Below are positions 44,684 through 64,000 of a stretch of 64,000 nt of DNA, piece after piece. Source of the stretch: an uncultured candidate division Zixibacteria bacterium (GTDB lineage Bacteria > Zixibacteria > MSB-5A5 > UBA10806 > 4484-95); the NCBI GenBank assembly GCA_963668625.2, contig CAXXKA010000010.1, forward strand, positions 352,001 through 416,000, written 5' to 3'. The notes beneath the pieces were generated by a model. It did no database searches. It had not been told where the DNA came from and was given only the letters and a program-made list of their open reading frames with translations. The number at the start of each line of letters is the position of its first letter. Within the stretch, counting starts at the first letter, position 1. The translations under genes and the position numbers were made by a program.

Positions 44684-45282
44684 ATGTTTAAAAGGATGTT
44701 GATTATTGTTTTTATAATAACGATTTTATTAAAAATTGGATATGCAGATAATAATTTATTTCTAAATCAGGAATATTCATCTGATAATATTGAGTTTGAA
44801 TTAAATCTAGTCAATTCAGATACTCTCTTTGGGATGCAAATACCAATTGATCTCGGTTTAAGCAAACTTGGCCTAAGGATTGACTCCGTTTCTTTCGCCG
44901 ATTCACGTATCGAACATTTCTATGAGTATTTTTATACCGAAAATGCTGACAGTAGCGGTATCTTCATATTCATCCTGGATTCAGCCGATCCTGAGATAGA
45001 GTCAACACCGCTGCTGCCGGGATCAGGCAAAATAGCAACAATCTATTTATCTCGTACGCGCGCCCCTATAGCGGATGATCATACAATAAATATAAAGAGC
45101 TGAAAGAACATCGCCGAAGATTAAGTTTCAGTGCCTGGGATCCTAACCAAGGCTTAGACCGCGCCAAAAATATTAGGTCTAAAAAGAAAAGAGCACAAAC
45201 CATAGAAAACGTGATGAGACGAAGGCAGTATCAGGATAAGATAGATTACTTTGATGGCGGGAATTTTGTTTTCCCTTACTAG
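44684..45282 (+). pseudogene. Frameshifted/chimeric cohesin-like gene (copy 1)
   Basis: Near-identical core to 46099-46611; frameshift near 45096; alternative frame continues RRRLSFSAWDP and then diverges. Confidence 0.65.
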
Positions 45283-45291
45283 TACTGGGAG

Positions 45292-46098
45292 GTGCATATG
45301 ATTTTAAGAATGTTAATAATTATACTGATCCTATCTGTTCCGCTTGCTGGACAAGAATATAGTATCCCAGATTTCAGTCTGTTTGGTTGCCAAAATGATG
45401 AAGATAAAGACAGCCTATTGTATAATTATGTTGTTGTGGAAATCGATTCAATTACAAAAGCTGAAACAATAAGAGGCAATGGAAAAGATTTTCGTGTTAA
45501 GGATTCATTCTCTTTCACTGAATTAAAGTGCATTAAATACTATGAATTTAGAGATGAACATGATTTTCACTACAGGAATATGGAACAATATTATAAAGTA
45601 TTATTCAATGTTTGCGATTCCACTTTATATCCATTTTCTGGTGATGGTTTAAAATTTACTAATGTGATAAAAAGCTACTTACCTGAAATCATAGCCGGAG
45701 GCGAGCAGAAAATATTGAACCTATGCTTTTTGTTTCTACACACAGTCAATCGCGTACCAATAAATTCAATTGATAATTATCAAAAGTTATGGGAGGATAT
45801 CTATGAGGAATATAGTGATTATAATGAGTTATCGGAAGAGGATATCATTGATGATATAGAATCAATAAATAGACTACTGCATCCAACCAGTACGTATACA
45901 ACCAATAGAATAACATACAAAAATAATTTCTTCCGGATTATTATAAAAACATGGGAACCATTTAATGGTGATATTGAATCCTGGACATTATTAGTTTCGA
46001 ATAAGATATTTGAAGTTGAGAATGTTACTAGACGTCTTGAGAGAATGGGGCCATATCAACAAAGACATAGTGATCTAATCATAAGAAAGGAAAATTAG
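45292..46098 (+). CDS. Exported putative immunity/partner protein, paralogue 3
   Basis: GGAGG RBS; signal peptide; FSFTEL, LFNVCDSTLYPF, SYLPEII, TWEPFNGDIESW, MGP. Confidence 0.65.
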   Translation: MHMILRMLIIILILSVPLAGQEYSIPDFSLFGCQNDEDKDSLLYNYVVVEIDSITKAETIRGNGKDFRVKDSFSFTELKCIKYYEFRDEHDFHYRNMEQYYKVLFNVCDSTLYPFSGDGLKFTNVIKSYLPEIIAGGEQKILNLCFLFLHTVNRVPINSIDNYQKLWEDIYEEYSDYNELSEEDIIDDIESINRLLHPTSTYTTNRITYKNNFFRIIIKTWEPFNGDIESWTLLVSNKIFEVENVTRRLERMGPYQQRHSDLIIRKEN

Positions 46099-46611
46099 AT
46101 GGTTAGGTTTATTGCACTTTATATTATAATCCTGAATATATGTGTTTTGGGTGAAAATAATATATCAAGTCAGTTTAATGCTTCAGGAAATAATATCCAA
46201 ATTGAATTGAACCTAGTCAATTCAGATACCCTTTCTGGGATGCAAATACCAGTAGACCTTGGTTTAAGTAAGCTCGGCTTGAGAATTGACTCCGTTTCTT
46301 TCGCCGATTCACGTATCGAACATTTCTATGAGTATTTTTATACCGAAAATGCTGACAGTAGCGGTATCTTCATATTCATCCTGGATTCAGCCGATCCTGA
46401 GATCGAATCAACACCGCTGCTGCCAGGATCAGGTAAGATTGCAACTATCTATTTATCTTGCACGCGTGATCCTAGGGTAGATAGTCACTCCCTTGGCATT
46501 AAAGAGGTAAGAGACCGTAAACGAAGGCTAACCTTCGATGCTTGGGATCCAACAGGTAATCCAGTCGAAATAGAGTTAACGCCACTGAGACTTGATGTTA
46601 GGCGGGAGTAA
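46099..46611 (+). CDS. Small exported cohesin-like beta-sandwich protein (copy 2)
   Basis: Signal peptide; L.NSDTL.GMQIP..L, IDSVSFADSR and LLPGSGKIATIYL resemble cohesin-like domains (pattern recognition only). Confidence 0.55.
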   Translation: MVRFIALYIIILNICVLGENNISSQFNASGNNIQIELNLVNSDTLSGMQIPVDLGLSKLGLRIDSVSFADSRIEHFYEYFYTENADSSGIFIFILDSADPEIESTPLLPGSGKIATIYLSCTRDPRVDSHSLGIKEVRDRKRRLTFDAWDPTGNPVEIELTPLRLDVRRE

Positions 46612-46690
46612 GTAAATGATAAAAGAGTGTATTCTTGCTATGATGGCATATACTTTAAAATAAGCATGTTAGTATAAATGAGTTGATATT

Positions 46691-46854
46691 TTCTAACGAG
46701 TTTCTAACAATTAACTTCATGGAACTCAACGAAACTCGGCACAACTCGATAGAACTGAATGCAACTAAACGATTGAAAATCAGAGGATTGAGCGCAATTT
46801 ATTAGTATGCAACAAATTAGCTTAAACTGCCAGCGTCGAATCCCTGTCTCTCCG
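46691..46854. repeat. att-like arm plus tRNA 3'-end core, copy 1
   Basis: TTCTAAC x2; AACT at a 10-bp period (46713-46763); IHF-consensus AATCAGaggaTTG; 19-bp core. Confidence 0.8.
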
Positions 46855-47120
46855 GTTAGTATCCCCTCATTTCTATTTTAAGTTATCTTTCAAAACTTTT
46901 GTAAAGACCAGTTATAATTTAGCGGCATTTTTCTTTCTATAATCTGATGGATTTTTCAATCATTCAATTACTATAGAAGCTATAGCCTCCTGCTGCCTAA
47001 TAGAGAGGGCGTAAAAGCAGATTTCTAGCCGTCATTGTTAATGTAATAATAAAATATTGGATTATGACATAGAGATAAAATGATGTAACAGAATGCCAAT
47101 CAATATGTTATATTTTTGGC

Positions 47121-47177
47121 TTGACATAAATGGAAGAAGATGTATCTTAGTATTGCAACTACCAATGGTGGTTGCAA
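47121..47177 (+). promoter_or_regulatory. Promoter with adjacent inverted repeat (putative operator)
   Basis: TTGACA-16 bp-TATCTT, then TTGCAACTACC-aat-GGTGGTTGCAA. Confidence 0.6.
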
Positions 47178-47225
47178 AAAACATAGGGCTGCTGATTGTA
47201 CAGGTTGAATTGAAAAGAGGGTATA

Positions 47226-48128
47226 TTGACTGAAATACTTGAGAAGATAAAAAAACTTGGGTTGAACAGTTATGAAGCTAAAGTTTATTTAGCTCTATTA
47301 GAGCGCGAAGCATTAACTGTCAGCGAAATATCTAATATCTCGGGAGTTCCCAGGGGGCGAATATATGATACTCTTGACTCTTTAATGATCGCGGGATTAA
47401 CCACTTTAAAGCCGGGAACACTTAAGAAATATAGTGCAGCCAGTCCCGAGGTGCTTCAAAGTTTGCTTGAACAGAGAATCAAATCACAATTCGAAGAGCA
47501 AAATGAACGATTGTCAAGTGCGGTACTGGTCCTAAAGAAAACGTATGAAATCGCTCGTGAAAACAGATTGAAGAATTCCAGCCCGCTGGACTATATTGAA
47601 GTTCTTAGAAATCGTATACAGATTCATCATAAATATCTGGAGTTATTCTCTAGAGCCCAACATGAAGTATTGTCATTTACCAAACCGCCATTCGCGTTCG
47701 CTAATGATCGGCAATTAGATGAACAATATAAAGTTCAGCTTGATGCGGTTAAGAAGAAAGTCAGAATTAGGACTATTGTTGAACTGCCACCAAAAGATAA
47801 ACTAGAAGAATTTTACAGTGAGATATTCGCGCCTGAGAATAAAATAGACGCACCCTTAGATCAGCATGAGATCAGGGTCTTCGATGAATTACCGGTAAAG
47901 ATGTTCGTGTTTGATGGTAAAACCTGTTTCTTTACTCTTGAGGATCCTATTAAAGGAAAAACATCCTTAACGATGCTTGTCACCGACCATGTAGCTATGG
48001 CAAAGAGTTTTAGATTCTTATTCGAGTCATTCTGGGAAAAATCAAGGCATTACTTAATTATCAATGGTGAGCAACGCTATATTTATTCTGAAGAGGAATT
48101 AAAGGGCAGGAAGAGCGGTAAATCATGA
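47226..48128 (+). CDS. TrmB family transcriptional regulator
   Basis: LGLNSYEAKVYLALL, SGVPRGRIYDTL HTH; C-terminal LPVKMFVFD...F..FW. Confidence 0.9.
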   Translation: MTEILEKIKKLGLNSYEAKVYLALLEREALTVSEISNISGVPRGRIYDTLDSLMIAGLTTLKPGTLKKYSAASPEVLQSLLEQRIKSQFEEQNERLSSAVLVLKKTYEIARENRLKNSSPLDYIEVLRNRIQIHHKYLELFSRAQHEVLSFTKPPFAFANDRQLDEQYKVQLDAVKKKVRIRTIVELPPKDKLEEFYSEIFAPENKIDAPLDQHEIRVFDELPVKMFVFDGKTCFFTLEDPIKGKTSLTMLVTDHVAMAKSFRFLFESFWEKSRHYLIINGEQRYIYSEEELKGRKSGKS

Positions 48129-50803: not shown

Positions 50804-53800
50804 ATGAAAAAAGTACTGCTTTTTATATTGATACCAATTTCATTTTGCGCCATAACTTCTTATGCGCTGGCCGATCCTCCGGCTAACGATGATTGTATCG
50901 ATGCTACTGATGCCGGCACCCTGTCGGCGGGCATGCCCGTTCAACTCAGCGGTAGTTTGATTGATGCTACGAATGATTGCCAGAATGTTTGGTATCCAGA
51001 GGTGTGGATTAAGTTCACAATTACATCATTTATGGATGTTACGATAGATTACTGTGATGATGCAAACTACTTGTTTGAGGCATCCTCCGTGCTATTTAGT
51101 GATTGCCCGTGTGGTTCAGCTATTGATTACAGTCTTTGGGATCATTGCCCGTTAGGTAATCCGTCGTATACCTGGTATGGCCTGAGCGCTGGTACTTACT
51201 ATTATCCAATTGGAGGCGTGTGGGGTAGTACTGAGAAAGCCGGCTCCTATACGATAAACATAACCGGTGATAATTGTCCGCCACCTCCTGCCAATGATGA
51301 TTGTGCTAACGCGATCTCGGTATCCGAGGTTACGGACCAGTCTTACAGCACTCGCGGAGCTACTTTTGATGGCACAGGTACCTGCCTGACCTCTGGAAAT
51401 ATCTGGTATGTGTATACACCCAGCTTCACGGGTACTGCCAGGATTTCGCTGGATCCATCATATAGTTCAAGAGTTACCGCTTATGATGGCTACTCTTGTT
51501 TGCCATTGCCTTCACAGTTGGGATGCGAGGAATCAGAGATTGATTTTGCGGTCGTTACAGGCCAGCAGTACCTTTTGGAAATCGGTGGTTCCGATTCATC
51601 CGTTGGAGATGGAACATTTACTATTAGAGAAGCTCCGGAATCGCCAGCCAACGACGATTGCGCTGACGCTACCGATGCAGGGACCCTGGTAGACGGCAAC
51701 ACGGTTCAGCTCAGTGGGTCTCTTATTGAGGCGACTGTTGATTGTCAGTTTAACTATGTCCCCGAAGTCTGGGTAAAATTCACTTTAAACTCTTGCATGG
51801 ATGTTACCATTGATTTTTGCGATTATGAGGAACAGTTTTATGGCGCTCCCATGTATTTATACGCGGATTGCCCCTGCGATGATGGGATGGTATCATATAA
51901 TAACTCATACAACTGCGAGCTTAACGGCAATCCGATAATGACCTGGCAGGGGCTGGAAGCCGGTACATATTATTATGCAATATATTATGAGTTCTTCTTA
52001 AATACCGATGCGTATGATTCATATGTTGTTAATATTACCGGCACTGATTGCCCGTTACCGCCTGCTAATGATAACTGCAGTGACGCTATCGCAATCGGAG
52101 AGGTAACCGATTATGGATTCACGACCCGAAGTGCGACATATGATGGCAGCGGTAGTTGTATCACCGAGGGGGCAAATGTATGGTTTGTTTATACTCCATC
52201 GTTTACCGGAGATGCCAGAATAAATCTTAACGGCTCCGAATTCAACACTGTATTTGCTGTCTACGATGGCGCGACCTGCTCTCCTCTTCCCTTTGAAATC
52301 GATTGTACTGAGGAACCAAGTATGGATTACATAGTGGTTTCCGGACAACAATACCTTATAGAAATCGGCGCGAGCAATGAAGAGACAGGCGCCGGTGTAT
52401 TAACTATTGGTGAAGTACCTGATGCCCCGCCGAATGATAACTGTGAAAATGCGGATGATGGCGGAGTATTGATATCAGATTCTACAGTTCAATTTACAGG
52501 CACCACGGCTGGAGCGACACAGGATTGTGTGATGAATTACTATCCTGAGGTCTGGATTAAATTCACGGTACCATCCTGCATGGATATCACCATTGATTTT
52601 TGTGAAAATGAAGGCCGTATCTGGGAATTAGCGGAAAATTTGTATTACGATTGCTCATGTTACGATAGTCGTTACGCTAATGGCAATGACTATTGCGATA
52701 ACGACAATCCTATACTTAATTTCTATGGAGTCGAATCGGGTACATACTATTATTCAGTTTATGCTGTAGATGGAGGCAGTCCTTATACAGTTAACATTAC
52801 GGGCGTTGATTGTCCTTTACCTCCTGAGCCGGATTTCATCGTGACTGCCCCCTATACGGGAACAAGCACTACATGCGGTGCCGGGGACGATTGCAGAATT
52901 CCTTACGCCGGTGAGGATCAACTTTATGAGGTAACAATTTCCACGGATGGCAACTGGCTTTTCTCGCTGTGTAATAGCCAATCGGAATGGGAATCAGCAA
53001 TTACTCTTGGCACATCTCCCTGCGGCTGGGATATTGATCTGGAAAATCAAGATTGTGAAAACTGGCAGTCAGCGGGAATAGCTTATGGCCTTGATGCTGG
53101 AACCTATTACCTGAATATTGATGCCTCTGGAATCAGTTGCGGCGAATATACGCTGGATATACTTGAAATACCAGGGCCTTGCGATAATTCATACTATACC
53201 AATGGTAATCCGGATTACGCTGATGCGATAGCATCTTATCGCACGAGCGGAGAGACAGGTGTTTACTATGCCTGTGATGATTTCACTATCACCGAAGACA
53301 TTACTCTCGAAAGTATTAATTTCATGTCCGCTCTGTATAGCGAAGGTTTTGTGTATTTCGATGGGACAGGCGACTATATGATTTTATCTGACGATGGCGG
53401 CGCTCCCGGATCAATTCTTTACGAAGGCACGGAAGTGCAATGCGATGAAGTATCGACCGGCCGTCTTTATCATGGCATGGATGAAGTTTTCGCGTATCAA
53501 TTCGATAATCTGGACATCGAATTAGCGGCTGGAACTTATTTCCTGGCCTGTCGCACTATATCATCCCCGAACTACTGGTTAACGACAGATTCTCAAGCCG
53601 GAACAACCGCGTTTTACATGGATGATATTAATACTAATTGGACTCCATCAGGAGTTAACGCCGATTTGGCCTTCTGTTTGCTTGCTTCTACAAACGGCGG
53701 CGATTTCGAATACCTCCCCGGTGACGCCAACATGGCTGCCGGCTCGTGGCCGCCGAATGTAATCGGCGCGGATGTCACCTACCTGGTAAACTATTTCCGG

Positions 53801-54055
53801 GCTATCGCCGCGCCATGTCTGGTCGGTGGTTTCTATAACTCGGCTGATGCTAACGGTGACTGTTCGGTAATCGGCGCTGATGTCACTTACCTGGTACAAT
53901 ATTTCCGAGGCGCGAACGAATTACATTTCTGCCCGGACTATGAGCCAGCCTGGCAAAGCAGCGGTGATTTACCGGCCGAGGCTCCCTCCGGTTGGCCGAA
54001 TTGTGAAACTCCATCGTTGCTAAACGATCTAATTGTGCCCACTTCAGATCGTTAA
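50804..54055 (+). CDS. Secreted Cys-rich repeat protein with C-terminal dockerin-like domain
   Basis: Signal peptide; five PPxND(D/N)C-initiated modules in A-B-A-B-A order; two GADVTYLV.YFR dockerin repeats. Confidence 0.85.
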   Translation: MKKVLLFILIPISFCAITSYALADPPANDDCIDATDAGTLSAGMPVQLSGSLIDATNDCQNVWYPEVWIKFTITSFMDVTIDYCDDANYLFEASSVLFSDCPCGSAIDYSLWDHCPLGNPSYTWYGLSAGTYYYPIGGVWGSTEKAGSYTINITGDNCPPPPANDDCANAISVSEVTDQSYSTRGATFDGTGTCLTSGNIWYVYTPSFTGTARISLDPSYSSRVTAYDGYSCLPLPSQLGCEESEIDFAVVTGQQYLLEIGGSDSSVGDGTFTIREAPESPANDDCADATDAGTLVDGNTVQLSGSLIEATVDCQFNYVPEVWVKFTLNSCMDVTIDFCDYEEQFYGAPMYLYADCPCDDGMVSYNNSYNCELNGNPIMTWQGLEAGTYYYAIYYEFFLNTDAYDSYVVNITGTDCPLPPANDNCSDAIAIGEVTDYGFTTRSATYDGSGSCITEGANVWFVYTPSFTGDARINLNGSEFNTVFAVYDGATCSPLPFEIDCTEEPSMDYIVVSGQQYLIEIGASNEETGAGVLTIGEVPDAPPNDNCENADDGGVLISDSTVQFTGTTAGATQDCVMNYYPEVWIKFTVPSCMDITIDFCENEGRIWELAENLYYDCSCYDSRYANGNDYCDNDNPILNFYGVESGTYYYSVYAVDGGSPYTVNITGVDCPLPPEPDFIVTAPYTGTSTTCGAGDDCRIPYAGEDQLYEVTISTDGNWLFSLCNSQSEWESAITLGTSPCGWDIDLENQDCENWQSAGIAYGLDAGTYYLNIDASGISCGEYTLDILEIPGPCDNSYYTNGNPDYADAIASYRTSGETGVYYACDDFTITEDITLESINFMSALYSEGFVYFDGTGDYMILSDDGGAPGSILYEGTEVQCDEVSTGRLYHGMDEVFAYQFDNLDIELAAGTYFLACRTISSPNYWLTTDSQAGTTAFYMDDINTNWTPSGVNADLAFCLLASTNGGDFEYLPGDANMAAGSWPPNVIGADVTYLVNYFRAIAAPCLVGGFYNSADANGDCSVIGADVTYLVQYFRGANELHFCPDYEPAWQSSGDLPAEAPSGWPNCETPSLLNDLIVPTSDR

Positions 54056-54078
54056 TTATTACCTTTAAGAAAAGGGTG

Positions 54079-54105
54079 AAAGGCGGCTTTAAAGCCGCCT
54101 TTTTT
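54079..54105 (+). terminator. Intrinsic terminator
   Basis: AAAGGCGGCT-ttaa-AGCCGCCTTTTTT. Confidence 0.85.
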
Positions 54106-54267
54106 CTAACGATTTTCTAACGAGTTACTCGATGGAACTCAACAGAAATCGACACAACTTAACGCAACTGAATGGAACTAAACAGTTGAATATCAGCAAA
54201 TTAAACATAACTCGATGATATACAGAATATTAGCTGATATTACCCTCGTCGAATCCCTTTTTCTCCG
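54104..54267. repeat. att-like arm plus degenerate tRNA 3'-end core, copy 2
   Basis: TTCTAACGA x2; (A/T)ACT-like motif at a 10-bp period (54126-54176); IHF-consensus TATCAGcaaaTTA; core TCGAATCCCTtTtTCTCCG. Confidence 0.75.
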
Positions 54268-54371
54268 TATTATAACTCCACTATTCAATACTTGACAGTA
54301 ATTGCGACAGTAGGAAATACAACCTTCATTTAAAATTCTAAATAAAGGTTTACAATTTCACAAAAAATAAC

Positions 54372-54399
54372 TTGACATTCATTGAAATAAATATATAAT
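54372..54399 (+). promoter_or_regulatory. Sigma70-type promoter of the lys operon
   Basis: TTGACA-16 bp-TATAAT. Confidence 0.75.
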
Positions 54400-54433
54400 G
54401 GCTTCTCGAGTTTGAACGATATTAAGAAATGAG

Positions 54434-54574
54434 ATGAGATTGAATAACCCAAATGGCATTATCGCCAAAGCAGCAAGCTCAATAAACGGCCGAAAACAGG
54501 TTGTCATAAATAAGTCTAAGCGCGTGCTTAATATATATGGAGATATCCGGTTGGGTTACATCGTAATGAAATAG
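54434..54574 (+). CDS. Putative leader peptide (46 aa)
   Basis: MRLNNPNGIIAKAASSINGRKQVVINKSKRVLNIYGDIRLGYIVMK, located between the promoter and the attenuator-like terminator. Confidence 0.45.
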   Translation: MRLNNPNGIIAKAASSINGRKQVVINKSKRVLNIYGDIRLGYIVMK

Positions 54575-54599
54575 AATCTGAGTAAAAATAAAATTCTTT

Positions 54600-54633
54600 A
54601 AAAAGCCTTTCCACCCGGAAAGGCTTTTTTTTT
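54600..54633 (+). terminator. Attenuator-like terminator upstream of lysW
   Basis: AAAAGCCTTTCC-accc-GGAAAGGCTTTTTTTTT, about 33 bp before the lysW start. Confidence 0.8.
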
Positions 54634-54665
54634 CGCTTAATAACTCAAATTGAAAGGAAAGAAAA

Positions 54666-54830
54666 ATGACAGAATGCCCGGTTTGCGGAACAAAAATTAC
54701 ATTGGAAAACGATGTTGTTCAAGGTGAAATCCTTGTCTGTATTGAATGCGGTACGGAGTTAGAACTTTTTAGTGTTGATCCTATAACTATAGTTGAAGCG
54801 CCTCAGGAAGAAGAGGATTGGGGTGAATAA
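54666..54830 (+). CDS. lysW: Amino-group carrier protein LysW (absent from the ORF track)
   Basis: MTECPVCG...CIECGTELE...EEEDWGE*; 54 aa with the diagnostic C-terminal EDWGE. Confidence 0.97.
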   Translation: MTECPVCGTKITLENDVVQGEILVCIECGTELELFSVDPITIVEAPQEEEDWGE

Positions 54831-55992
54831 TCAAATCCAGATACTTGATTCAACTCTACGTGAGGGAGAACAAACTCCGGGAGTTTATTTCGACAATCAC
54901 ATAAAAAAAGAAATTGCGGATATTCTGAACTCCATTGGCGTTGGCTATATAGAGGCTGGGCATCCCCTGGTTAGCGATGAAATCTGTACGGCAGTTAGAG
55001 ATATTAGTCGCCTTAACTTGAACTCGATAGTCGTTGCTCATGCCAGATCACAGAAAAAAGATATAGATATGGCATTGCAATCAAATGTCGGTATGATCGG
55101 GATTTTCTATTGTGTTTCCGATAAAAGACTAAATGACGTTTTCAATGTAAGCCTGACCAAAGCAATCGACCAGATAGTATCAACAATTACCTATGCTAAA
55201 GAGCAGAAGCCTGATATTCTGATCAGGTATACACCCGAGGATACGGTACGTTCGAAATTTCAAAACGTCGTTGATGCCTCAGTAGCGGCTGTCGAAGCCG
55301 GCGCGGATATTATTAGTGTTGCTGATACTACTGGATATATGATACCCGGCGTCCGTAGCATGTATGATTATATAAGCCGGCTCAGGGATGCATTATCAAA
55401 GCATGGGATACGTCCTACTATCGCAGCCCATTGCCACAACGACAGGGGGCTTGCTCTGGCAAATTCGCTTGATGCCGTGCGGGCTGGAGCCAACATTATT
55501 GACGCCTCCGTGTTGAGGCTGGGTGAACGAACCGGTATTACTGATCTCGCTGAAATTCTCTTTAATCTAACTGATGGATTTCATCTAGATCGGTGGGATC
55601 TCCCACGTCTGCAAAAACTATATGAACTCGTTAGCAATTACACCGGCATCGGAATCCCTGTAAATTATCCTATTGTCGGGGAAAATGCTTTTACTCACAA
55701 TGCTGGTGTTCATACCCATGCATGGATCAAGAAGAACGACCATTATGAAAGCGTGCAGCCTGAAATTGTCGGCCGTACATCAAAAATATGCCTGGATAAT
55801 ATGTCCGGTTTGGCCTCGGTGATTCATGCTCTGGAGCGCATAAGCAATGCTGAAATAGATATTGAAATGGCAAAGTGGATTTTAAAACGCGTGAAGGAGA
55901 TTGGTTTGAGAGGACGCGCTGTTAAAGAAGATGAACTGAATTTGTTGGTTAAATACTTTAAATCTCTGGTTGAAGGACATTCAGCTGCTTAA
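54823..55992 (+). CDS. Homocitrate synthase-like (DRE-TIM) enzyme
   Basis: LDSTLREGEQ, ADTTG, HCHNDRG, LGERTG, FTHNAGVH; GTG start overlaps the end of lysW. Confidence 0.85.
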   Translation: MNNQIQILDSTLREGEQTPGVYFDNHIKKEIADILNSIGVGYIEAGHPLVSDEICTAVRDISRLNLNSIVVAHARSQKKDIDMALQSNVGMIGIFYCVSDKRLNDVFNVSLTKAIDQIVSTITYAKEQKPDILIRYTPEDTVRSKFQNVVDASVAAVEAGADIISVADTTGYMIPGVRSMYDYISRLRDALSKHGIRPTIAAHCHNDRGLALANSLDAVRAGANIIDASVLRLGERTGITDLAEILFNLTDGFHLDRWDLPRLQKLYELVSNYTGIGIPVNYPIVGENAFTHNAGVHTHAWIKKNDHYESVQPEIVGRTSKICLDNMSGLASVIHALERISNAEIDIEMAKWILKRVKEIGLRGRAVKEDELNLLVKYFKSLVEGHSAA

Positions 55993-56006
55993 GAAAGTAG
56001 GATAAT

Positions 56007-56861
56007 ATGAGAATTGGTTTTTTACATTCGCTAATTCGCAAAGATGAGAAATTGTTGATAGATGAATTCAAAAAGAGAAAAAATCTTGAATTAGTGATGA
56101 TAGATGACAGGCGGATTTCATTTGATTTAAAAAGCTCCGGATATTCTGTAGATGTATTGGTTGAGAGGTGCATAAACCATTCGAGGGCGCTCCATGCTTT
56201 AAGGCTTTTTGAAAGCCAGGGTATAACCTGCGTAAATACATCCTCAGTGGCGACTATATGTGGAGATAAACTACTAACCTCGGTTGTACTCGAGGAGAAT
56301 AATATACCTCAGCCTGAGATTCGAGTTGCTTTTACAGTGGAATCAGCTCTGTCGGCAATTGAGGATATTGGTTATCCGGTTGTTTTGAAACCAGCTGTTG
56401 GCTCCTGGGGAAGGCTTCTGGCTAAAATCAACGATCGCGATGCAGCGGAGGCAATCCTTGAGCATAAAACTGTTCTGGGAAGTTACCATCATTCGATTTT
56501 CTATATACAGAAATATATCTCTAAAAATGGCAGAGACATCAGGAGCTTTATTGTTGGCGATCGATGTATAGCCGCGATTTATAGAAATTCTGATCATTGG
56601 ATAACCAACACCGCGAGAGGAGCTGAAGCAGAAAACTGCCCGGTAACCGCAGACATTCGCGATCTCTCTATAAGAGCAGCCAGGGCCGTAGGTGGGGGAA
56701 TCGTGGCAGTTGATCTTCTGGAGAGCCCGGACGGTCTTCTGGTTAATGAAGTTAATTACACGATGGAATTTAAAAACAGTATAACCACGACAGGTGTTGA
56801 TATACCCCGATACATTGTCGACTACGCGATAACGGCGGCTGAAAGAGGAGTTTATGAATAA
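56007..56861 (+). CDS. lysX: Alpha-aminoadipate--LysW ligase
   Basis: ATP-grasp [35 protein letters not shown]. Confidence 0.93.
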
Positions 56862-57900
56862 TGCGAAAGTATCTGTAGTGGGAGGATCAGGCTATGTTGG
56901 CGGCGAATTAATAAGGTTGCTACTTTCACATCCTCATACGGATATTCATCAAGTGACCTCTGAAAGAAACGTGGGGAGGTATGTTCATCAGTTGCATCCC
57001 AATCTCCGCAATAGAACACGGATGAAATATTGCAAGCTTAATGACCTGGAAACCTGTGACATCCTGTTTATATGCCTGCCTCACACAAAGACCATAGCTC
57101 ATATTGATAGGTTTTTGGGGCTTGCCGATAAAGTCATCGATCTGGGTGCTGATTTCCGTTTAAACACGGAAGATGATTATGCCTTCTGGTATGGTTTACC
57201 GCACGGCTACCCGGAATTACTCAAAAAGTTCGTCTATGGCATTCCAGAACTCCGAAGAGATGAGATGAGAAATTCCAATTATATCTCCAGCGCTGGATGC
57301 AATGCCACGGTAACGATACTGGCGTTGTATCCGCTATTTAAGAACGATTTGATAGAGCCGGAGAGGACTGTCGTCGAGGTCAAGGTAGGTTCTAGCGAAA
57401 GCGGTAATAATGTTTCAATGGCTTCTCATCATCCGGAAAGAAGCGGATGTGTCAGGTCTTTCAAGCCTGTAGGTCACAGGCATATTGCTGAAATATTACA
57501 GGAGTTGTCGTTTGGAAAGAAAATCGAGGTACACTTCTCGGTCACATCGGTGGAGCTTGTTCGTGGTGCTCTGGCGACCTCGCATGTTTTTCTGAAAAGC
57601 GATGTTGATGAAAAAGATATCTGGAAAATATATCGCAAGGAATACGGTAATGAGCCCTTTATCCGTATAGTAAAAGAAAAAAATGGAATCTATCGTTACC
57701 CGGAGCCGAAATTGCTTGTAGGTTCTAATTACTGCGATATCGGTTTTGTAAAAGATATGAGCTCTAACAGGCTGGTTGTAATCAGCGCTATTGATAATCT
57801 CATGAAAGGTGCGGCCGGACAGGCTGTTCAAGCATTAAATTTGATGTTAGGCTGCAATGAAACCACAGGTCTCGAATTTCCCGGACTTCACCCGGTTTAA
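56854..57900 (+). CDS. lysY: LysW-aminoadipyl-phosphate reductase (ArgC-like)
   Basis: [38 protein letters not shown]. Confidence 0.92.
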
Positions 57901-57911
57901 AGGAGTGGAAG

Positions 57912-58547
57912 ATGTGCAGACTGTTGTGTGTCAAAGCAGAAAAGGAGTTTTCCATCTCATACCATCTGCGAAAATTTGCCGAGATGGCAAAAACAAGCAG
58001 GGAGTATCAGGGGCATGGTTGGGGATGCGCTTATCTTCAAGACGGAGTTTGGAAGATTTATCATAGCATTATTCCTGTTTGGGAGGATGATTTTCGGAAA
58101 TTCACGAAAACGACTCTCCTGTTAACTCATGCAAGAAGCGCTTTTCAGAACAGAGGGATCAAAGTAGAAAACAATATGCCATTTTATGATGGTAAGTATG
58201 TATTCATTTTTAACGGCGAACTTCATGGAGTGAGAATTAATGAGTCGGGAAGAATTGGTGCTGAGAAACTATTTAACTTTATTAAAAGATTTGATGATGG
58301 TGATATGGGGGAGGCGCTTGAAACAGGGATTATTTGTCTTAAAGGAAAGGTCAAATATATCAAAGCGGCTAATATAATTATTGCCGCCGGAAAGCAAGTC
58401 TATTGGGCATCATTATTCAACGAAAATCCCGAATATTTTACTATGCATTGTAAAAAGAGTGGTAACCTGAAAATTATCGCATCCGCGCCATATGTGAACG
58501 ATAACAACTGGGTGAAAATTACTAAAGGATCAATAGGGGAGTTATAA
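57912..58547 (+). CDS. Class II glutamine amidotransferase-like (Ntn hydrolase; EgtC/YafJ/Dug3-like)
   Basis: N-terminal MCRLL (Cys nucleophile), HGWG, HARSA, N.MPF, F.FNG. Confidence 0.8.
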   Translation: MCRLLCVKAEKEFSISYHLRKFAEMAKTSREYQGHGWGCAYLQDGVWKIYHSIIPVWEDDFRKFTKTTLLLTHARSAFQNRGIKVENNMPFYDGKYVFIFNGELHGVRINESGRIGAEKLFNFIKRFDDGDMGEALETGIICLKGKVKYIKAANIIIAAGKQVYWASLFNENPEYFTMHCKKSGNLKIIASAPYVNDNNWVKITKGSIGEL

Positions 58548-59339
58548 ATGATTATTGTTAAAATCGGTGGTGGAGATAAAATAAATCTCCGGGGCATTAT
58601 TGAGGATTTAGCAGACTGCGATGAGCAATTTATAATTGTGCACGGTGCTAATCATTTAAGGGATAAAATAGCGGCTGATCTGAATATCGAGAAGAAAGTA
58701 CTGACCTCGATTTCAGGGTACAGCAGCGTTTATTCCGACAGTACCGCTCTCGATCTTCTGATGATGGCGTATGCTGGATTGAGAAATAAGCGAGTTGTAG
58801 AAATTTGTCATCAAAACGGTATTAATGCTATTGGGCTTTCCGGTTTGGATGGAAAAATCATCCAGGGACAAAGAAATAAAGGTATCAGGGTAAAAATGAA
58901 TTACAAGGTCAGAATTGTCCGAGATTTTTCAGGCAAACCCAGGCAGGTTAATTCTTCATTGCTGATGTTGCTTATGGATAACGGTTACGTACCGGTATTA
59001 AGCGTCCCAATAATTGATGAGCAAAATTTTGCTATCAATTCTGATAACGATGATATTGTCGCCTTACTGCAAAAGACCTGTAATGCTAGGAAGATTATCC
59101 ATTTAATAGAGGCTCCCGGCTTTCTGGATGATCCTGATGATGAAAGCAAGGTTGTAAAAAATATTACAAGAGAGGAGTTGAAAATGCGTGAAAAGCAGGC
59201 TGAGGGGCGGATGAAAAGGAAGATGCTTGCCATAAGAAAGCTATTCGAACACGGAACGCCAACTGTATACATATCGGATGGACGAACAGCTCATCCAATT
59301 AGCAGTGCTCTGGGGGGAGAAGGGACGATTATAGCATGA
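58548..59339 (+). CDS. lysZ: LysW-aminoadipate kinase (ArgB-like)
   Basis: VKIGG, VHGA, SGYSSVYSD, GLSGLDG, GRMKRK. Confidence 0.92.
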   Translation: MIIVKIGGGDKINLRGIIEDLADCDEQFIIVHGANHLRDKIAADLNIEKKVLTSISGYSSVYSDSTALDLLMMAYAGLRNKRVVEICHQNGINAIGLSGLDGKIIQGQRNKGIRVKMNYKVRIVRDFSGKPRQVNSSLLMLLMDNGYVPVLSVPIIDEQNFAINSDNDDIVALLQKTCNARKIIHLIEAPGFLDDPDDESKVVKNITREELKMREKQAEGRMKRKMLAIRKLFEHGTPTVYISDGRTAHPISSALGGEGTIIA

Positions 59340-60496
59340 CAGAATTCAATCGGGAAATAGATGATAATGAGCTTGATCTGTACCCTAAAAGAGATCTCGT
59401 GATTGTAAAGGGGAAAAACGCTATTGTCTGGGATGACCGGGGCAGGGAATACATAGATTGTGTAGCAGGACATGGAGTTGTCAACGTTGGACATTGTAAT
59501 GCACGAGTAGTGAAAGCAATACAAAATCAGGCGGAAAAACTTATCAGTTGTACGGGTATATTCGATAATGATTCAAAATCCAAACTCCTGAAAATGCTCG
59601 TAGATATCTCTCCAGCAAGCTTAAATAAGGCTTTCCTTTGTAATTCAGGAACTGAAAGTATAGAAGCGGCGATAAAATTCGCACGATATTCGACTCGTAA
59701 AACTGAATTTATCTGTGCCATGAGGGGATTTCATGGTAGAACGCTGGGGTCATTAAGCGCTACTTATAATCCGAAATATAGAAATGATTTCGAACCGTTG
59801 GTTCCTGGCTTTAAGTTTGTTCCATTCAATAATTTTGATAAAATTGAATCGGTAGTATCAAAAAATACTGCAGGAATTATACTTGAAATAATCCAGGGCG
59901 AGGGTGGTATTAATTTAGGAAATCATGAATATTTTACTCAAATAAGAAGAATGTGCGATGAAAAAGAAATTCTACTTATTATCGATGAGGTCCAAACTGG
60001 ATTTGGTAGGACGGGAAAGATGTTTGCCTGCGACCACTTCGGTTTGCAGCCCGATATATTGTGTTTAGCTAAGGCCATTGCCGGCGGAATGCCCATGGGG
60101 GCAGTCTTATGCTCAAATAAAATTACAGCTTCGAAAGGGAAACATGGTTCGACATTTGGCGGAAATCCTCTTGCCTGTGAAGCGGCTCTAGCTGCTATAA
60201 CATTTATTTTGGATAGTAATCTTGCAGATCAATCATTGGAAAAAGGCGACTATATATGTTCGCGGCTAAAAGAATTCAATCTTCAAGTTATTCGTGAGAT
60301 TAGACACAAGGGGCTTATGATCGGGATTGAACTGAAAGTAAAAGTAAAACCATTTATTACCAGATTAATGAAAAAGGGAATCCTGGTTTTACCTGCAGGG
60401 GCTACGGTTATAAGACTTTTGCCGCCACTAACTATAAGTTATGAGGAATTGGATAAGGTAATCAACGAACTATATGAGGTACTACGGCCGGTGTAA
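59336..60496 (+). CDS. lysJ: LysW-aminoadipate semialdehyde transaminase (ArgD-like)
   Basis: NSGTESIEAA, FHGRT, QGEGG, DEVQTG, LAKAIAGG, STFGGNP. Confidence 0.9.
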   Translation: MTEFNREIDDNELDLYPKRDLVIVKGKNAIVWDDRGREYIDCVAGHGVVNVGHCNARVVKAIQNQAEKLISCTGIFDNDSKSKLLKMLVDISPASLNKAFLCNSGTESIEAAIKFARYSTRKTEFICAMRGFHGRTLGSLSATYNPKYRNDFEPLVPGFKFVPFNNFDKIESVVSKNTAGIILEIIQGEGGINLGNHEYFTQIRRMCDEKEILLIIDEVQTGFGRTGKMFACDHFGLQPDILCLAKAIAGGMPMGAVLCSNKITASKGKHGSTFGGNPLACEAALAAITFILDSNLADQSLEKGDYICSRLKEFNLQVIREIRHKGLMIGIELKVKVKPFITRLMKKGILVLPAGATVIRLLPPLTISYEELDKVINELYEVLRPV

Positions 60497-60864: not shown

Positions 60865-60896
60865 TAAGGGCGGCTCTGCAAAGGGCCGCCTTATTT
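60865..60896 (+). terminator. Intrinsic terminator
   Basis: GGCGGCTC-tgcaaa-GGGCCGCC followed by TTATTT. Confidence 0.7.
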
Positions 60897-62465: not shown

Positions 62466-64000
62466 ATGAAAATGCAAGCATTTAAATCAAGAATAATTAA
62501 ACATTTGGGCCTCACAATAATAATAGCCGTTATGCTAGTGGCATTTTCCGGTATGGCAAGCGCCGATGCAGGAGATGTCGTTTGGTCTAATATACAACAC
62601 TATGTTGATATGGAAACACCGGCTGGTGATACGGTTTTTTTCCGATGTGTCGCGATAGATGAAACTACCGATGGTGGAAGTGTAGTTGCCGGTTATGCCG
62701 AAGCGACCTCGGTTTATAATGATGATCTGGCTTATATTATCAGGCTGGATCAATATGGAGACACTCTCTGGGTCCGTCATTTTGGCAGAGCGGATTATCA
62801 TTATAAATCCAGAGCGGTTATTGTCGAGCCTGATGGTGGATTTATCCTGGTCGGTGATATACGATCCCCATATTATGAAATACCTCCCTCATACTCCGAA
62901 ACTGGTGTTTTTATGATGAAGATTAACGCCGATGGTGATAGTGTTTGGTTTGGCCGCTATAATGATATTCCCGGAAAATACTACTACAATGTCAGGAATG
63001 TTTGCAAAACCTCCGATGACGGATATGTTTTATTCGGCAATACGATTAGAAAGCAAGAAGGGGGAGATCTAACCATGTGGGATGGTTTCATAATTAAAAC
63101 CGATTCTGATGGTAATGAGGAATGGACCAGGCACTATGAGGGGCCAGCCGACGAAGAAGATCCCCGCTGGGACAGGACTCATATAGTAGCACTTGCAGGT
63201 GATATCGCCAATGACGGTACATATTTATTAACCGGCTCCCAACAGACGGTTTATAGTGAGAATGGTGATAGGCTTTGGATATATGACAACGCCCTGGTAA
63301 TGAATATAGACGCCAACGGTGATACCATCTCGACTTTCAAGTATGGCATACATGATCAGGTTAAGGATATATGCGCGACCGCAGAAGGCGGTTATTTAAT
63401 AGGATTGATAAATAGGGATGTGTTCAGTGATGATGTTGCCGAGTTTATCGATCAGGCAACGGTCGTAAATGTTGATAATGCGAATAACGAGATCTGGCAT
63501 TACGACGTGCTTATGGATTCCGGTATTGATTCGGGTTATGACACTTCGAGTGTCGCCCGGTCGGTTGCCGAGATACCAGGCGGCGGATATTTATTAGCAG
63601 GACAGAAATTATTTTTTATTGAAGATTCCAGTCATCTGATACCTGTACGTACTAGTCAGCTTTTCATATCGGTTTTCGATAATGATGGTTCTTTGAAATT
63701 CACACGCCTGTATGAAGATGAATTCGGTAATTCAACCTTAAGACCATTTATTCCTTTAGATGTCAAGATAAAAGCGAACGGAAATTACCTCGTATGTGGT
63801 ACGTTCGAGTATTATGAGACTGAAGAAAACAGACTCATTTATCCCGCCGAGGGAATTGTAGTGGAATTGGAAGCCAGCACTGTTGGCATCGAGGATAACC
63901 AAACTTCCCAATTGCCCGAGCAGATATCTCTCATGCAGAACTACCCCAATCCGTTCAACGCCACCACGCAAATACAGTTCTCCCTGAATACATCAGATGA
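62466..64000 (+). CDS. Secreted beta-propeller-like protein with FlgD-Ig/T9SS-like tail, 3'-truncated by window
   Basis: AAGGAG RBS, ATG 62466, signal peptide; repeated DGG/(D/N)xxGDxxW motifs; NYPNPFNATT near the window end; frame open to the end. Confidence 0.85.
   Translation, partial: MKMQAFKSRIIKHLGLTIIIAVMLVAFSGMASADAGDVVWSNIQHYVDMETPAGDTVFFRCVAIDETTDGGSVVAGYAEATSVYNDDLAYIIRLDQYGDTLWVRHFGRADYHYKSRAVIVEPDGGFILVGDIRSPYYEIPPSYSETGVFMMKINADGDSVWFGRYNDIPGKYYYNVRNVCKTSDDGYVLFGNTIRKQEGGDLTMWDGFIIKTDSDGNEEWTRHYEGPADEEDPRWDRTHIVALAGDIANDGTYLLTGSQQTVYSENGDRLWIYDNALVMNIDANGDTISTFKYGIHDQVKDICATAEGGYLIGLINRDVFSDDVAEFIDQATVVNVDNANNEIWHYDVLMDSGIDSGYDTSSVARSVAEIPGGGYLLAGQKLFFIEDSSHLIPVRTSQLFISVFDNDGSLKFTRLYEDEFGNSTLRPFIPLDVKIKANGNYLVCGTFEYYETEENRLIYPAEGIVVELEASTVGIEDNQTSQLPEQISLMQNYPNPFNATTQIQFSLNTSD

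What the first reader, a model, noticed from the sequence alone, without database searches (positions are those of the whole stretch)
57912..58547. LysW lysine operon lacks lysK but embeds an Ntn-hydrolase: candidate non-orthologous LysK replacement
Seen: gene order is lysW, HCS-like, lysX, lysY, class II GAT-like, lysZ, lysJ, tightly packed (the GAT stop abuts the lysZ ATG), with no M20 peptidase in the operon. Established: in Thermus/Sulfolobus the M20 peptidase LysK releases lysine from the gamma-carboxyl of LysW's C-terminal Glu. Class II GAT-fold Ntn hydrolases such as EgtC and Dug3 cleave gamma-glutamyl amide bonds with an N-terminal Cys. Inference: this MCRLL protein performs the LysW-gamma-Lys release step by different chemistry, or recycles mis-loaded LysW. 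I do not know of a description of this substitution.
Basis: partly seen in the sequence, partly recalled or inferred. Interest (0 to 1): 0.82.

Follow-up and report, generated by a model that had tools for sequence, protein, structure and literature searches.

The report
Ntn hydrolase replaces LysK for LysW
A small cysteine-nucleophile hydrolase sits inside this lysine/arginine operon that builds amino acids on a carrier protein, and it most likely does the final release step, which the textbook version gives to an unrelated metal enzyme.

Summary
Window 54666-60496 (+) is a packed operon: lysW, HCS-like, lysX, lysY, a 211-aa class II GATase/Ntn-fold protein (57912-58547, starts MCRLL), lysZ, lysJ. 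It has no M20 gene, and the genome has no LysK over its family cut-off.

- Synteny: all 80 relatives examined, from many phyla, lie beside LysW-pathway genes.
- Exclusion: of 68 LysX-bearing genomes tested for both, 44 have only the Ntn gene, 23 only LysK, 0 both, 1 neither.
- Position: in one subtype the Ntn gene follows lysJ, where lysK sits in LysK-type clusters.
- New clue: LysW ends in Gln instead of Glu in 25 of 82 Ntn-type clusters and 0 of 42 LysK-type clusters. This needs at least 12 changes on a LysX tree. A terminal Gln needs gamma-deamidation, which is the chemistry of this fold.
- Fold: closest to the gamma-glutamyl hydrolase EgtC (TM 0.76).

Most likely it is a LysW-gamma-Lys/Orn hydrolase that displaced LysK. 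No biochemistry exists, and six literature searches found no description.

The parts
54372..54399 (+). sigma-70-like promoter candidate (TTGACA, 16 nt, TATAAT) upstream of the operon
   Evidence: 12 of 12 consensus matches. This is a consensus match only, not shown to function.
54600..54629 (+). terminator-like hairpin plus T-run in the leader just before the lysW ribosome-binding site; possible attenuator
   Evidence: No Rfam family reaches its gathering score in 54000-54700.
54666..54830 (+). lysW, amino-group carrier protein, 54 aa, ending ...EEEDWGE
   Evidence: PF21344, 64.3 bits. TIGR01206, 65.5 against 53.2. Sequence.
54793..55992 (+). homocitrate/isopropylmalate synthase-like gene. The longest ORF starts at TTG 54793. 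The likely start is GTG 54824, overlapping the lysW stop (VNNQIQILDSTLREGEQ).
   Evidence: It is the only LeuA/HCS homologue in the genome by tblastn. It is below all NCBIfam equivalog cut-offs.
56007..56861 (+). lysX, ATP-grasp ligase that loads LysW
   Evidence: TIGR02144, 347.8 against 275.6.
56854..57900 (+). lysY, LysW-aminoadipyl/glutamyl-phosphate reductase (ArgC family)
   Evidence: TIGR01850, 380.7 against 233.6. There is no second ArgC homologue in the genome.
57912..58547 (+). the finding: a 211-aa Cys-nucleophile Ntn (class II GATase-fold) protein, proposed LysW-gamma-Lys/Orn hydrolase and LysW C-terminal Gln deamidase
   Evidence: Synteny. Complementarity with LysK.
58548..59339 (+). 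lysZ, LysW-aminoadipate/glutamate kinase
   Evidence: NF010659, 238.1 against 223. It is the only ArgB-family gene in the genome.
59336..60496 (+). lysJ, LysW-semialdehyde aminotransferase (ArgD family)
   Evidence: TIGR00707, 449.1 against 410. The LysJ-specific models score 429 and 370, below their 700 cut-offs.
60867..60892 (+). terminator-like hairpin after lysJ; likely operon end
   Evidence: 11 pairs, 7 G-C. Consensus match only.

Best explanation
The 211-aa protein is the release enzyme of an Ntn-type variant of the LysW (amino-group carrier protein) pathway. It is a non-homologous replacement of the M20 metallohydrolase LysK.

Proposed mechanism:
1. The initiator Met is removed, so Cys2 becomes the N-terminal nucleophile.
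2. Its thiol attacks the gamma-carbonyl of LysW's C-terminal Glu54. That carbonyl is amide-linked to the alpha-amino group of the finished lysine, or of ornithine.
3. Asn101 and Gly102 stabilise the oxyanion. Arg75 holds the free alpha-carboxylate of Glu54.
4. Free Lys/Orn leaves, giving a LysW-gamma-glutamyl thioester on the enzyme.
5. Water resolves the thioester and returns LysW-Glu54 for reloading by LysX.

The same reaction on a gamma-carboxamide turns a gene-encoded C-terminal Gln into Glu. That is why LysW can end in Gln only in clusters that carry this enzyme.

In this genome the seven-gene module was probably acquired horizontally. It is the only ArgB/ArgC-type route, so it probably supplies ornithine for arginine. 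With the in-operon HCS-like gene it probably supplies lysine too.

Shown here: gene order, family membership, conserved residues, fold, co-occurrence and exclusion patterns, and the Gln termini. Inferred: the substrate, the covalent mechanism, the residue roles and the products.
For: (1) Synteny.
- 540 relatives were found in species genomes. All 80 of the best 80 lie within 2.5 kb of LysW-pathway genes on the same strand: 73 have lysY upstream, 67 have lysZ directly downstream, and 62 have both.
- By record titles the hosts include Gammaproteobacteria, Deltaproteobacteria, Gemmatimonadota, Acidobacteriota, Ignavibacteria/Bacteroidota, Calditrichia, KSB1 and Binatia.

(2) Complementarity with LysK.
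- Acidobacteriota: 39 LysX-bearing genomes gave 17 Ntn only, 21 LysK only, 0 both, 1 neither.
- Gemmatimonadota: 27 gave 25 Ntn only, 2 LysK only, 0 both.
- The window's phylum: LysX occurs in 2 of 285 genomes, and strong Ntn matches occur in exactly those 2.
- 0 of 50 Ntn-bearing genomes have LysK over the cut-off.
- 0 of 80 LysK loci from metagenomes have an Ntn relative.
- The M20 genes after lysJ are true LysK in 9 of 9 tested (251-331 bits against 163.1).

(3) Positional equivalence. A divergent subtype (L093, L120-L122, L124) has the Ntn gene directly after lysJ, the place of lysK.

(4) Footprint on the substrate.
- LysW ends in ...DWGQ in 25 of 82 Ntn-type clusters and in 0 of 42 LysK-type clusters (Fisher p = 9e-6, kin not independent).
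- Stop codons after CAA/CAG were verified in 12 loci.
- The change needs at least 12 events on the LysX tree, all inside Ntn-type clades.

(5) Catalytic equipment.
- Invariant in 24 sequences at 54-74% identity: M1-C2-R3-L4-L5, H73-A-R75-S-A, N87-N-M-P-F91, N101-G102-E103 and G113-R-I-G-A-E118.
- In the 50%-identity library most of the 150 listed matches align from their own residue 1.

(6) Fold. AF2 pLDDT is 89.1. The top Foldseek hits are EgtC, an Ntn hydrolase of a gamma-glutamyl amide (TM 0.76, E 6e-11), followed by PurF/GlmS glutaminase domains.

(7) Self-sufficient acquired module.
- 0 of 20 relatives have an ArgB-family kinase.
- The genome has no second ArgB/ArgC but has ArgF.

(8) One Ntn-LysZ fusion protein keeps the Ntn domain at the free N-terminus (MCRIL...).

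(9) Charge. The Ntn family is basic (median pI 8.4) and LysW is acidic (median pI 4.05).
Against: - No enzymology, genetics or expression data exist for any member.
- Generic M20 paralogues are present in 48 of 50 Ntn-bearing genomes (all below the LysK cut-off). This genome has three. A promiscuous ArgE/DapE-type enzyme could therefore do the release.
- On the LysX tree the main Ntn type is one clade (81 rows). The Ntn/LysK switch needs only about 3 events. The many-genome exclusion counts thus reflect few independent events.
- LysK-type samples come from two phyla plus Acidobacteria-like metagenome loci. Archaeal and Thermus-type LysW termini were not examined here.
- The residue roles rest on a weak, motif-anchored hhalign alignment with this genome's own PurF (probability below 1%).
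- 57 of 82 Ntn-type LysW end in Glu, so the Gln clue bears on only part of the family.
Confidence: 0.72

Rival explanations
1. Maturation or proofreading enzyme only. It deamidates Gln-ended LysW, or strips wrongly loaded or dead-end adducts from LysW. Product release is done by a promiscuous M20 (ArgE/DapE/YgeY-type) encoded elsewhere.
For: - Gln-ended LysW exists only with this gene.
- M20 paralogues below the LysK cut-off are present in 48 of 50 Ntn-bearing genomes and in this genome.
Against: - 57 of 82 Ntn-type LysW end in Glu and need no maturation, yet all these clusters keep the gene.
- This reading does not explain why LysK is missing exactly where this gene is present (0 both of 68), nor why the gene takes the lysK slot after lysJ in one subtype.
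- The M20 at 25736 is conserved in 19 of 20 relatives that lack the pathway.
Confidence: 0.13
2. Free-standing glutaminase or small-molecule gamma-glutamyl hydrolase. It makes glutamate for LysX/LysJ, or cleaves gamma-glutamyl peptides, and does not act on LysW itself.
For: - It has a class II GATase fold with a complete glutaminase-type motif set.
- Its nearest solved relatives act on small molecules: EgtC, PurF and GlmS.
Against: - No step of the pathway needs ammonia, and no synthase domain or partner is present.
- The segment that in PurF holds the Asp thought to bind the substrate's free alpha-amino group appears deleted (weak alignment). That fits a peptide-bound Glu.
- This reading does not explain the exclusion with LysK or the Gln termini of LysW.
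Confidence: 0.07
3. Transamidase. The LysW-thioester intermediate is passed directly to the alpha-amino group of the next aminoadipate/glutamate. LysW is reloaded without ATP, and LysX is needed only for priming.
For: - Cys-thioester chemistry allows aminolysis, as in transglutaminases and gamma-glutamyl transferases (established knowledge, recalled).
- Gln-ended LysW would be a ready acyl donor.
Against: - lysX is kept in the Ntn-type clusters wherever the contig reaches.
- No feature specific to transfer was found.
Confidence: 0.06

Closest known systems
LysK, [LysW]-lysine/ornithine hydrolase (M20 metallopeptidase; TIGR01902 / NF003367) of Thermus and Sulfolobus-type LysW pathways
   Same: It has the same proposed reaction and the same place in the pathway. 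The two are mutually exclusive across genomes. In one subtype the Ntn gene occupies the same gene position, after lysJ.
   Different: The fold and chemistry are unrelated: an Ntn alpha-beta-beta-alpha cysteine hydrolase of 211 aa with a covalent thioester and no metal site, against a roughly 350-aa di-metal M20 enzyme. Ntn-type LysW can end in Gln; LysK-type LysW did not in 42 of 42 cases.
EgtC, ergothioneine-pathway Ntn hydrolase (PDB 4zfj/4zfk/4zfl; TIGR03442)
   Same: It is the closest solved fold (TM 0.76, 19-20% identity). It is a single-domain enzyme of similar size with an N-terminal Cys, and it cleaves a gamma-glutamyl amide rather than serving a synthase domain.
   Different: The finding is not an EgtC family member: TIGR03442 scores 48.7 bits against a cut-off of 218.65, and the PDB profile E-value is only 7e-4. 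EgtC's substrate is a small gamma-glutamyl compound, as its PDB entries record (glutamine and its natural substrate). Here the glutamyl residue is the C-terminus of a 54-aa protein. The genomic context also differs: LysW operon against egt operon.
Glutaminase domains of class II amidotransferases (PurF, GlmS) and stand-alone GATase_4 proteins (PDB 3mdn, 1te5; E. coli YafJ, recalled)
   Same: It shares Cys1, the H-x-R motif, the N-x-(Q/M)-P motif and the Asn-Gly oxyanion motif. Pfam GATase_4 is over its gathering score.
   Different: It has no synthase domain and no ammonia-using partner. A five-residue segment that in this genome's PurF reads SSTSD is missing (weak alignment). It forms a compact family of its own: 125 clusters at 50% identity with E <= 1e-30.
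Sulfolobus/Thermococcus-type bifunctional LysW pathway for lysine and ornithine
   Same: One LysW/LysX/LysZ/LysY/LysJ set is the only ArgB/ArgC-type route in the genome, and a homocitrate-synthase-like gene is present.
   Different: The release enzyme differs. The module is bacterial, patchy and probably transferred horizontally: 2 of 285 genomes of the phylum carry it.

Membership tests
Class II (Ntn) glutamine amidotransferase-fold hydrolases (Pfam GATase_4, PF13230) | Cys directly after the initiator Met, as N-terminal nucleophile | tested here: met
   M1-C2 is invariant in 24 of 24 aligned family members. Most of the 150 listed representatives align from their residue 1. The start codon has an AAGGAG Shine-Dalgarno.
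Class II (Ntn) glutamine amidotransferase-fold hydrolases (Pfam GATase_4, PF13230) | Profile match over the curated threshold | tested here: met
   PF13230 scores 34.7 bits against a gathering score of 23. It covers only residues 1-113 of the protein and 1-120 of 272 profile positions.
Class II (Ntn) glutamine amidotransferase-fold hydrolases (Pfam GATase_4, PF13230) | Ntn four-layer alpha-beta-beta-alpha fold | tested here: met
   The AF2 model has pLDDT 89.1 and pTM 0.89. Foldseek gives EgtC at TM 0.76, and GlmS/PurF glutaminase domains at TM 0.6-0.72.
Class II (Ntn) glutamine amidotransferase-fold hydrolases (Pfam GATase_4, PF13230) | Oxyanion Asn-Gly and substrate-carboxylate Arg motifs | tested here: inconclusive
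   R75 and N101-G102 are invariant. They align with the H-N-R and H-N-G motifs of this genome's PurF, but that alignment has very low probability. The residue roles are recalled from the PurF/GlmS literature.
EgtC (TIGR03442 equivalog) | Score over the curated cut-off; egt gene context | tested here: not met
   It scores 48.7 bits against 218.65. The context is a LysW operon in 80 of 80 relatives.
LysK / [LysW]-lysine hydrolase (M20; TIGR01902, NF003367) | Homology to M20 metallopeptidases | tested here: not met
   The protein has no M20 match. It may work like LysK but is not a member.
LysW (amino-group carrier protein) biosynthetic cluster | LysW carrier with C-terminal EDWGE, LysX ligase, LysZ kinase, LysY reductase and LysJ aminotransferase, co-located | tested here: met
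   LysW, LysX, LysY (ArgC model) and LysZ are over their curated cut-offs. LysJ is over the ArgD-family cut-off but below the LysJ-specific ones. All lie in one operon.
LysW (amino-group carrier protein) biosynthetic cluster | LysK release hydrolase | tested here: not met
   No TIGR01902 match over the cut-off exists in the genome, nor in 50 of 50 other Ntn-bearing genomes.

The most novel reading that the evidence does not exclude
The enzyme is a carrier-protein transamidase as well as a hydrolase. It holds LysW as a gamma-glutamyl thioester and can hand it straight to the alpha-amino group of the next aminoadipate or glutamate, so the carrier cycle runs largely without the ATP spent by LysX. 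Gene-encoded Gln-ended LysW would then be a ready-made acyl donor, used in the manner of a transglutaminase for the first loading.
Probability: 0.07. Interest if true: 0.92.

Novelty: new variant of a known kind. Interest (0 to 1): 0.8.

Why it matters
The LysW carrier-protein route to lysine and arginine is taught with LysK as its last enzyme. Pathway tools score that step by M20 homology.

In the two phyla sampled here, 42 of 66 LysX-bearing genomes carry the Ntn gene and 23 carry LysK. At least 540 species' genomes carry a relative. Such genomes would look as if the release step were missing.

If the assignment holds, three things follow:
- It fills a recurrent gap in Lys/Arg pathway reconstruction of uncultured bacteria.
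- It adds a protein-C-terminus-specific gamma-glutamyl hydrolase to the Ntn superfamily.
- It reveals carrier proteins encoded in an amidated (Gln) form that must be enzymatically unmasked.

The claim is directly testable with two small soluble proteins.

Tried and rejected
- Complex prediction of the Ntn family alignment with the LysW alignment gave the verdict 'weak support'. The score was 0.50 and the best of 3 controls was 0.00. By the tool's calibration the mark was reached by 58 of 80 solved complexes and 2 of 110 mismatched pairs. At 0.60 or under, however, it was reached by only 7 of those 80 solved complexes and by both mismatches. The runs agreed in at least 71% of contacts, and the partner's pLDDT was at least 76. 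No interface was given, so I do not count it as evidence.
- The look-up of sequencing runs listed no RNA holder. Nothing can be said on expression.
- Rfam on the operon leader, 54000-54700: nothing reached a gathering score. The best was BTnc231 at 30.4 against 80.4.
- The search for longer, fused forms gave 2 proteins. One is a real-looking Ntn-LysZ fusion. The other (P0122) reads as a frameshifted LysY run-through and was discarded.
- The profile search of PDB sequences gave only marginal hits (3mdn at 1e-4, EgtC at 7e-4). The fold search was needed.
- hhalign against this genome's PurF is too weak to prove residue roles.
- Six literature searches, plus passages of PMC12998189, PMC3249071 and the GapMind 2026 preprint, found no description of an Ntn/GATase-type enzyme in LysW clusters. 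Subscription journals and supplements were not searchable.
- I considered that the M20 at 25736 is the release enzyme. I rejected it as the dedicated one on its distribution.
Full report
**1. What is in the window**

Between 54666 and 60496 on the + strand lie seven tightly packed genes: lysW, an HCS/IPMS-like synthase, lysX, lysY, a 211-aa ORF at 57912-58547, lysZ and lysJ.

Curated models support the names:
- LysW: TIGR01206, 65.5 bits against a cut-off of 53.2.
- LysX: TIGR02144, 347.8 against 275.6.
- LysY: TIGR01850, 380.7 against 233.6.
- LysZ: NF010659, 238.1 against 223.
- LysJ: TIGR00707, 449.1 against 410.

The 211-aa protein starts MCRLL. An AAGGAG sits 8 nt before its ATG, and its stop abuts the lysZ ATG. 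It matches Pfam GATase_4 over the gathering score, through its N-terminal half only (34.7 against 23). It matches the EgtC model far below its cut-off (48.7 against 218.65). No M20 gene is in the operon.

A consensus promoter-like site (54372-54399) and terminator-like hairpins before lysW (54600-54629) and after lysJ (60867-60892) bracket the unit. These are pattern matches only.

**2. No LysK in the genome, and the M20 at 25736**

The genome has 10 contigs, is 4.3 Mb and is 95.9% complete. It has six Peptidase_M20 matches but none reaches the LysK model's cut-off. The best is 82.2 bits against 163.1.

The three full-length M20 proteins are a CpsA-like amidohydrolase, a YgeY-family hydrolase and a PRK13983-family hydrolase. 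The last is the gene at window 25736-26959, at 548 bits.

That gene has 62-81% identical orthologues in 19 of 20 relatives of the same genus, family and order. None of these relatives has LysX or an ArgB/LysZ-type kinase (0 of 20). It belongs to the lineage, not to the LysW module.

**3. The family and its context**

The protein has 2550 relatives of similar length at 90% clustering. It has 125 clusters at 50% identity with E <= 1e-30.

An alignment of 24 members at 54-74% identity to the window's protein has these invariant motifs:
- M1-C2-R3-L4-L5
- E31, Q33-G-H-G-W-G38
- H73-A-R-S-A77
- N87-N-M-P-F91
- N101-G-E-L104
- G113-R-I-G-A-E118

A scan of one genome per species found 540 relatives. 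I examined the 80 best. In 80 of 80 a LysW-pathway gene lies within 2.5 kb on the same strand. In 73 lysY is upstream, in 67 lysZ follows directly, and in 62 both hold. 22 have an HCS-like gene and 4 have two lysX. Only 1 has any M20-like ORF within the flanks, and that is a 38-bit match 9 kb away on the other strand.

The misses are mostly contig ends. The exceptions are eight gammaproteobacterial loci (L009, L011, L014, L015, L018, L021, L022, L025), where nearly 10 kb follows the Ntn gene without an adjacent lysZ, and three loci with 6-10 kb upstream and no lysY found there (L008, L009, L013).

By record titles the hosts include Gammaproteobacteria, Deltaproteobacteria, Gemmatimonadota, Acidobacteriota, Ignavibacteria/Bacteroidetes, Calditrichia, KSB1 and Binatia.

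**4.

The best is 106.5 bits. 48 of 50 have some weaker M20 match.

(b) Acidobacteriota.
- 401 genomes were sampled and 41 have LysX over the cut-off. That tally includes G486, flagged unpublished, which I did not use further.
- I fetched 39 of the 41. G034 was already in hand as L061, and G486 was left out.
- By context, 15 are Ntn-type, 20 have an M20 directly after lysJ, and 4 are cut by contig ends.
- Nine of nine tested M20 genes are true LysK (TIGR01902 251-331 bits).
- Whole-genome searches of these 39 gave 17 Ntn only, 21 LysK only, 0 both and 1 neither. The last is G711, whose locus is a 5.3-kb contig.

(c) Gemmatimonadota. 27 of 251 sampled genomes have LysX. 25 are Ntn only, 2 are LysK only and 0 have both.

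(d) The window's own phylum. LysX occurs in 2 of 285 genomes, G000 and G116. Strong Ntn matches (363 and 265 bits) occur in exactly those two. Four other genomes have only 31-39-bit matches to other GATase-like proteins.

(e) Eighty metagenome loci found with a LysK profile hold no Ntn relative (0 of 80).

In all, 68 LysX-bearing genomes were tested for both genes: 44 Ntn only, 23 LysK only, 0 both, 1 neither.

**5. Position**

In a divergent subtype the order is lysW-lysX-lysY-(HCS-like)-lysZ-lysJ-Ntn. These proteins carry MCRFL, DGDWQGDGWG, HARSAS, FNQPF, FVFNG and GxIGSQK. The Ntn gene thus stands where lysK stands in LysK-type clusters (L093, L120, L121, L122, L124).

**6. An unexpected clue in LysW itself**

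LysW of Ntn-type clusters ends either in ...EEDWGE or in ...EEDWGQ.
- First sample: 49 Glu and 16 Gln of 65.
- Acidobacteriota Ntn-type: 6 Glu and 9 Gln.
- With the window and G116, the total is 57 Glu and 25 Gln of 82.
- LysK-type clusters: 42 Glu and 0 Gln. These are 21 Acidobacteriota genomes and 21 metagenome loci.
- Fisher's test gives p = 9e-6, but related genomes are not independent.

On a LysX tree of 108 rows the Glu/Gln state changes at least 12 times, always inside Ntn-type clades. The Ntn/LysK state changes about 3 times. That was a quick IQ-TREE search, and some long branches were flagged. CAA/CAG followed by a stop codon was checked directly in 12 loci.

The reasoning runs as follows. 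By established knowledge of the pathway, LysX ligates the substrate to the gamma-carboxylate of the terminal Glu. A terminal Gln has no such carboxylate. A Gln-ended LysW is therefore useless until its gamma-amide is hydrolysed. That is precisely the reaction class of a Cys-Ntn glutaminase-fold enzyme. An enzyme that cleaves LysW-gamma-NH-Lys would be expected also to cleave LysW-gamma-NH2, which would make the Glu-to-Gln substitution harmless only in its presence.

A second class-specific LysW position was seen. Residue -11 is Glu in 78 of 82 Ntn-type LysW and Leu in 31 of 42 LysK-type LysW, with Glu in 0 of 42. This may be a recognition feature or mere clade history.

**7. Fold and active site**

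The AF2 model is confident (pLDDT 89.1, pTM 0.89). Foldseek ranks EgtC first (4zfl/4zfj/4zfk, TM 0.76, E 6e-11, 19-20% identity). EgtC is an Ntn hydrolase that cleaves a gamma-glutamyl amide. Next come stand-alone GATase proteins (1te5, 3mdn) and the glutaminase domains of GlmS and PurF. By sequence alone the PDB matches are marginal.

A weak hhalign alignment with this genome's own PurF places H-A-R75 on H-N-R, N-N-M-P on N-I-Q-P and F-N101-G102 on H-N-G. It shows GRIG-----AEK opposite GSIFSSTSDTEL. The missing segment holds the Asp that, from my recollection of the PurF/GlmS literature, binds the free alpha-amino group of glutamine. Its loss would suit a glutamyl residue whose amino group is in a peptide bond, as at the C-terminus of LysW. 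I treat this as a lead, not a result.

The family is basic (median pI 8.4, ten conserved Lys/Arg columns), while LysW is very acidic (median pI 4.05).

**8. What the module makes here**

- tblastn with the operon's proteins finds no second ArgB, ArgC or LeuA/HCS homologue in the genome.
- ArgF is present (384.6 bits).
- LysA is present (454 bits).
- DapA was not found.
- Relatives lack ArgB-family kinases altogether.

The module was therefore most likely acquired as a self-contained unit. It lies downstream of a low-GC stretch with an IS4-type transposase. It is the only route to ornithine, and with the HCS-like gene it may also make lysine. The homoaconitase and homoisocitrate dehydrogenase steps were not resolved.

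Only 22 of 80 related clusters carry an HCS-like gene. In many hosts the product may therefore be ornithine alone.

**9. Verdict**

The best explanation is that this Ntn protein is the LysW-gamma-Lys/Orn hydrolase of a widespread bacterial variant of the carrier-protein pathway, doubling as the deamidase of Gln-ended LysW (confidence 0.72). It works like LysK but is not a member of that family. It is a member of the class II GATase/Ntn superfamily but not of EgtC.

The main rival is that it only matures or proofreads LysW while a generic M20 does the release. That rival is not excluded, because such M20 genes are almost always present and because the Ntn/LysK switch reflects few independent events.

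Six full-text searches and three papers read in passages gave no description of this substitution.

The complex prediction gave only weak support, and no RNA data were found. Both are listed under things tried.

Noticed in passing
window 54372-54660: A perfect sigma-70-like promoter (TTGACA, 16 nt, TATAAT) is followed by a roughly 230-nt leader. The leader ends in a 13-pair terminator-like hairpin with a T-run (54600-54629) right before the lysW ribosome-binding site. It could be an attenuator or an undescribed leader. No Rfam family reached its gathering score.
   Followed up: partly
loci L009, L012, L014, L018, L021, L022, L025, L036, L040, L047, L056, L061, L062, L064, L071, L082, L090, L092, L095, L100, L103, L106, L120, L121, L125: The LysW carrier proteins of these loci are encoded with a C-terminal Gln (...EEDWGQ) instead of Glu. 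This occurs only in clusters that carry the Ntn gene.
   Followed up: yes
LysW C-terminal tails, position -11 (window LysW residue E44): The residue before the conserved Ala-Pro is Glu in 78 of 82 Ntn-type LysW. In LysK-type LysW it is Leu in 31 of 42 and Glu in 0 of 42. It may be a recognition residue or clade history.
   Followed up: partly
window about 40000-48000: A low-GC stretch (31-37% against about 45% elsewhere) holds an IS4-type DDE transposase (41665-42831) and several ORFs without Pfam matches. It looks like foreign DNA upstream of the LysW module.
   Followed up: partly
whole genome G000 and its phylum: The LysW module is present in only 2 of 285 genomes of the phylum, and not in the two other genomes of the same genus. 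None of 20 relatives has an ArgB-family kinase. This points to horizontal acquisition into a lineage that lacks the ornithine pathway.
   Followed up: yes
G000:C6:527654-528868 and whole genome: LysA (diaminopimelate decarboxylase) is present, but no DapA match was found in a 95.9% complete genome. The state of the diaminopimelate route is unclear.
   Followed up: no
window 54793-55992: The HCS-like gene is the only LeuA/homocitrate-synthase homologue in the genome and is below all equivalog cut-offs. Its likely GTG start (54824) overlaps the lysW stop. Whether it makes homocitrate, isopropylmalate or both is open.
   Followed up: partly
protein P0121 (481 aa, from a 3.2-Mb contig): This is a single natural fusion of the Ntn protein (N-terminal, starting MCRIL) with LysZ.
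   Followed up: partly
loci L009, L011, L014, L015, L018, L021, L022, L025: In these gammaproteobacterial genomes no lysZ directly follows the Ntn gene, although nearly 10 kb of sequence follows it. Most read lysW-lysX-lysY-Ntn. In L021 lysZ and lysJ lie about 7-9 kb further on.
   Followed up: no
locus L094, 1-4615: An ArgC/ArgD/ArgB-like set with an ArgE/DapE-type M20 lies next to an Ntn-type LysW cluster in one Acidobacteriota genome. Both kinds of pathway can therefore coexist.
   Followed up: no
window 50804-54055 and 62466-63998: A 1083-aa ORF has no Pfam or NCBIfam match. A protein of more than 511 aa has a weak SBBP beta-propeller repeat match. These two flank the operon.
   Followed up: no
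window 24474-26959: A methyltransferase, a DinB-family protein and the PRK13983-family M20 hydrolase lie in a row. The M20 is conserved in 19 of 20 relatives.
   Followed up: partly
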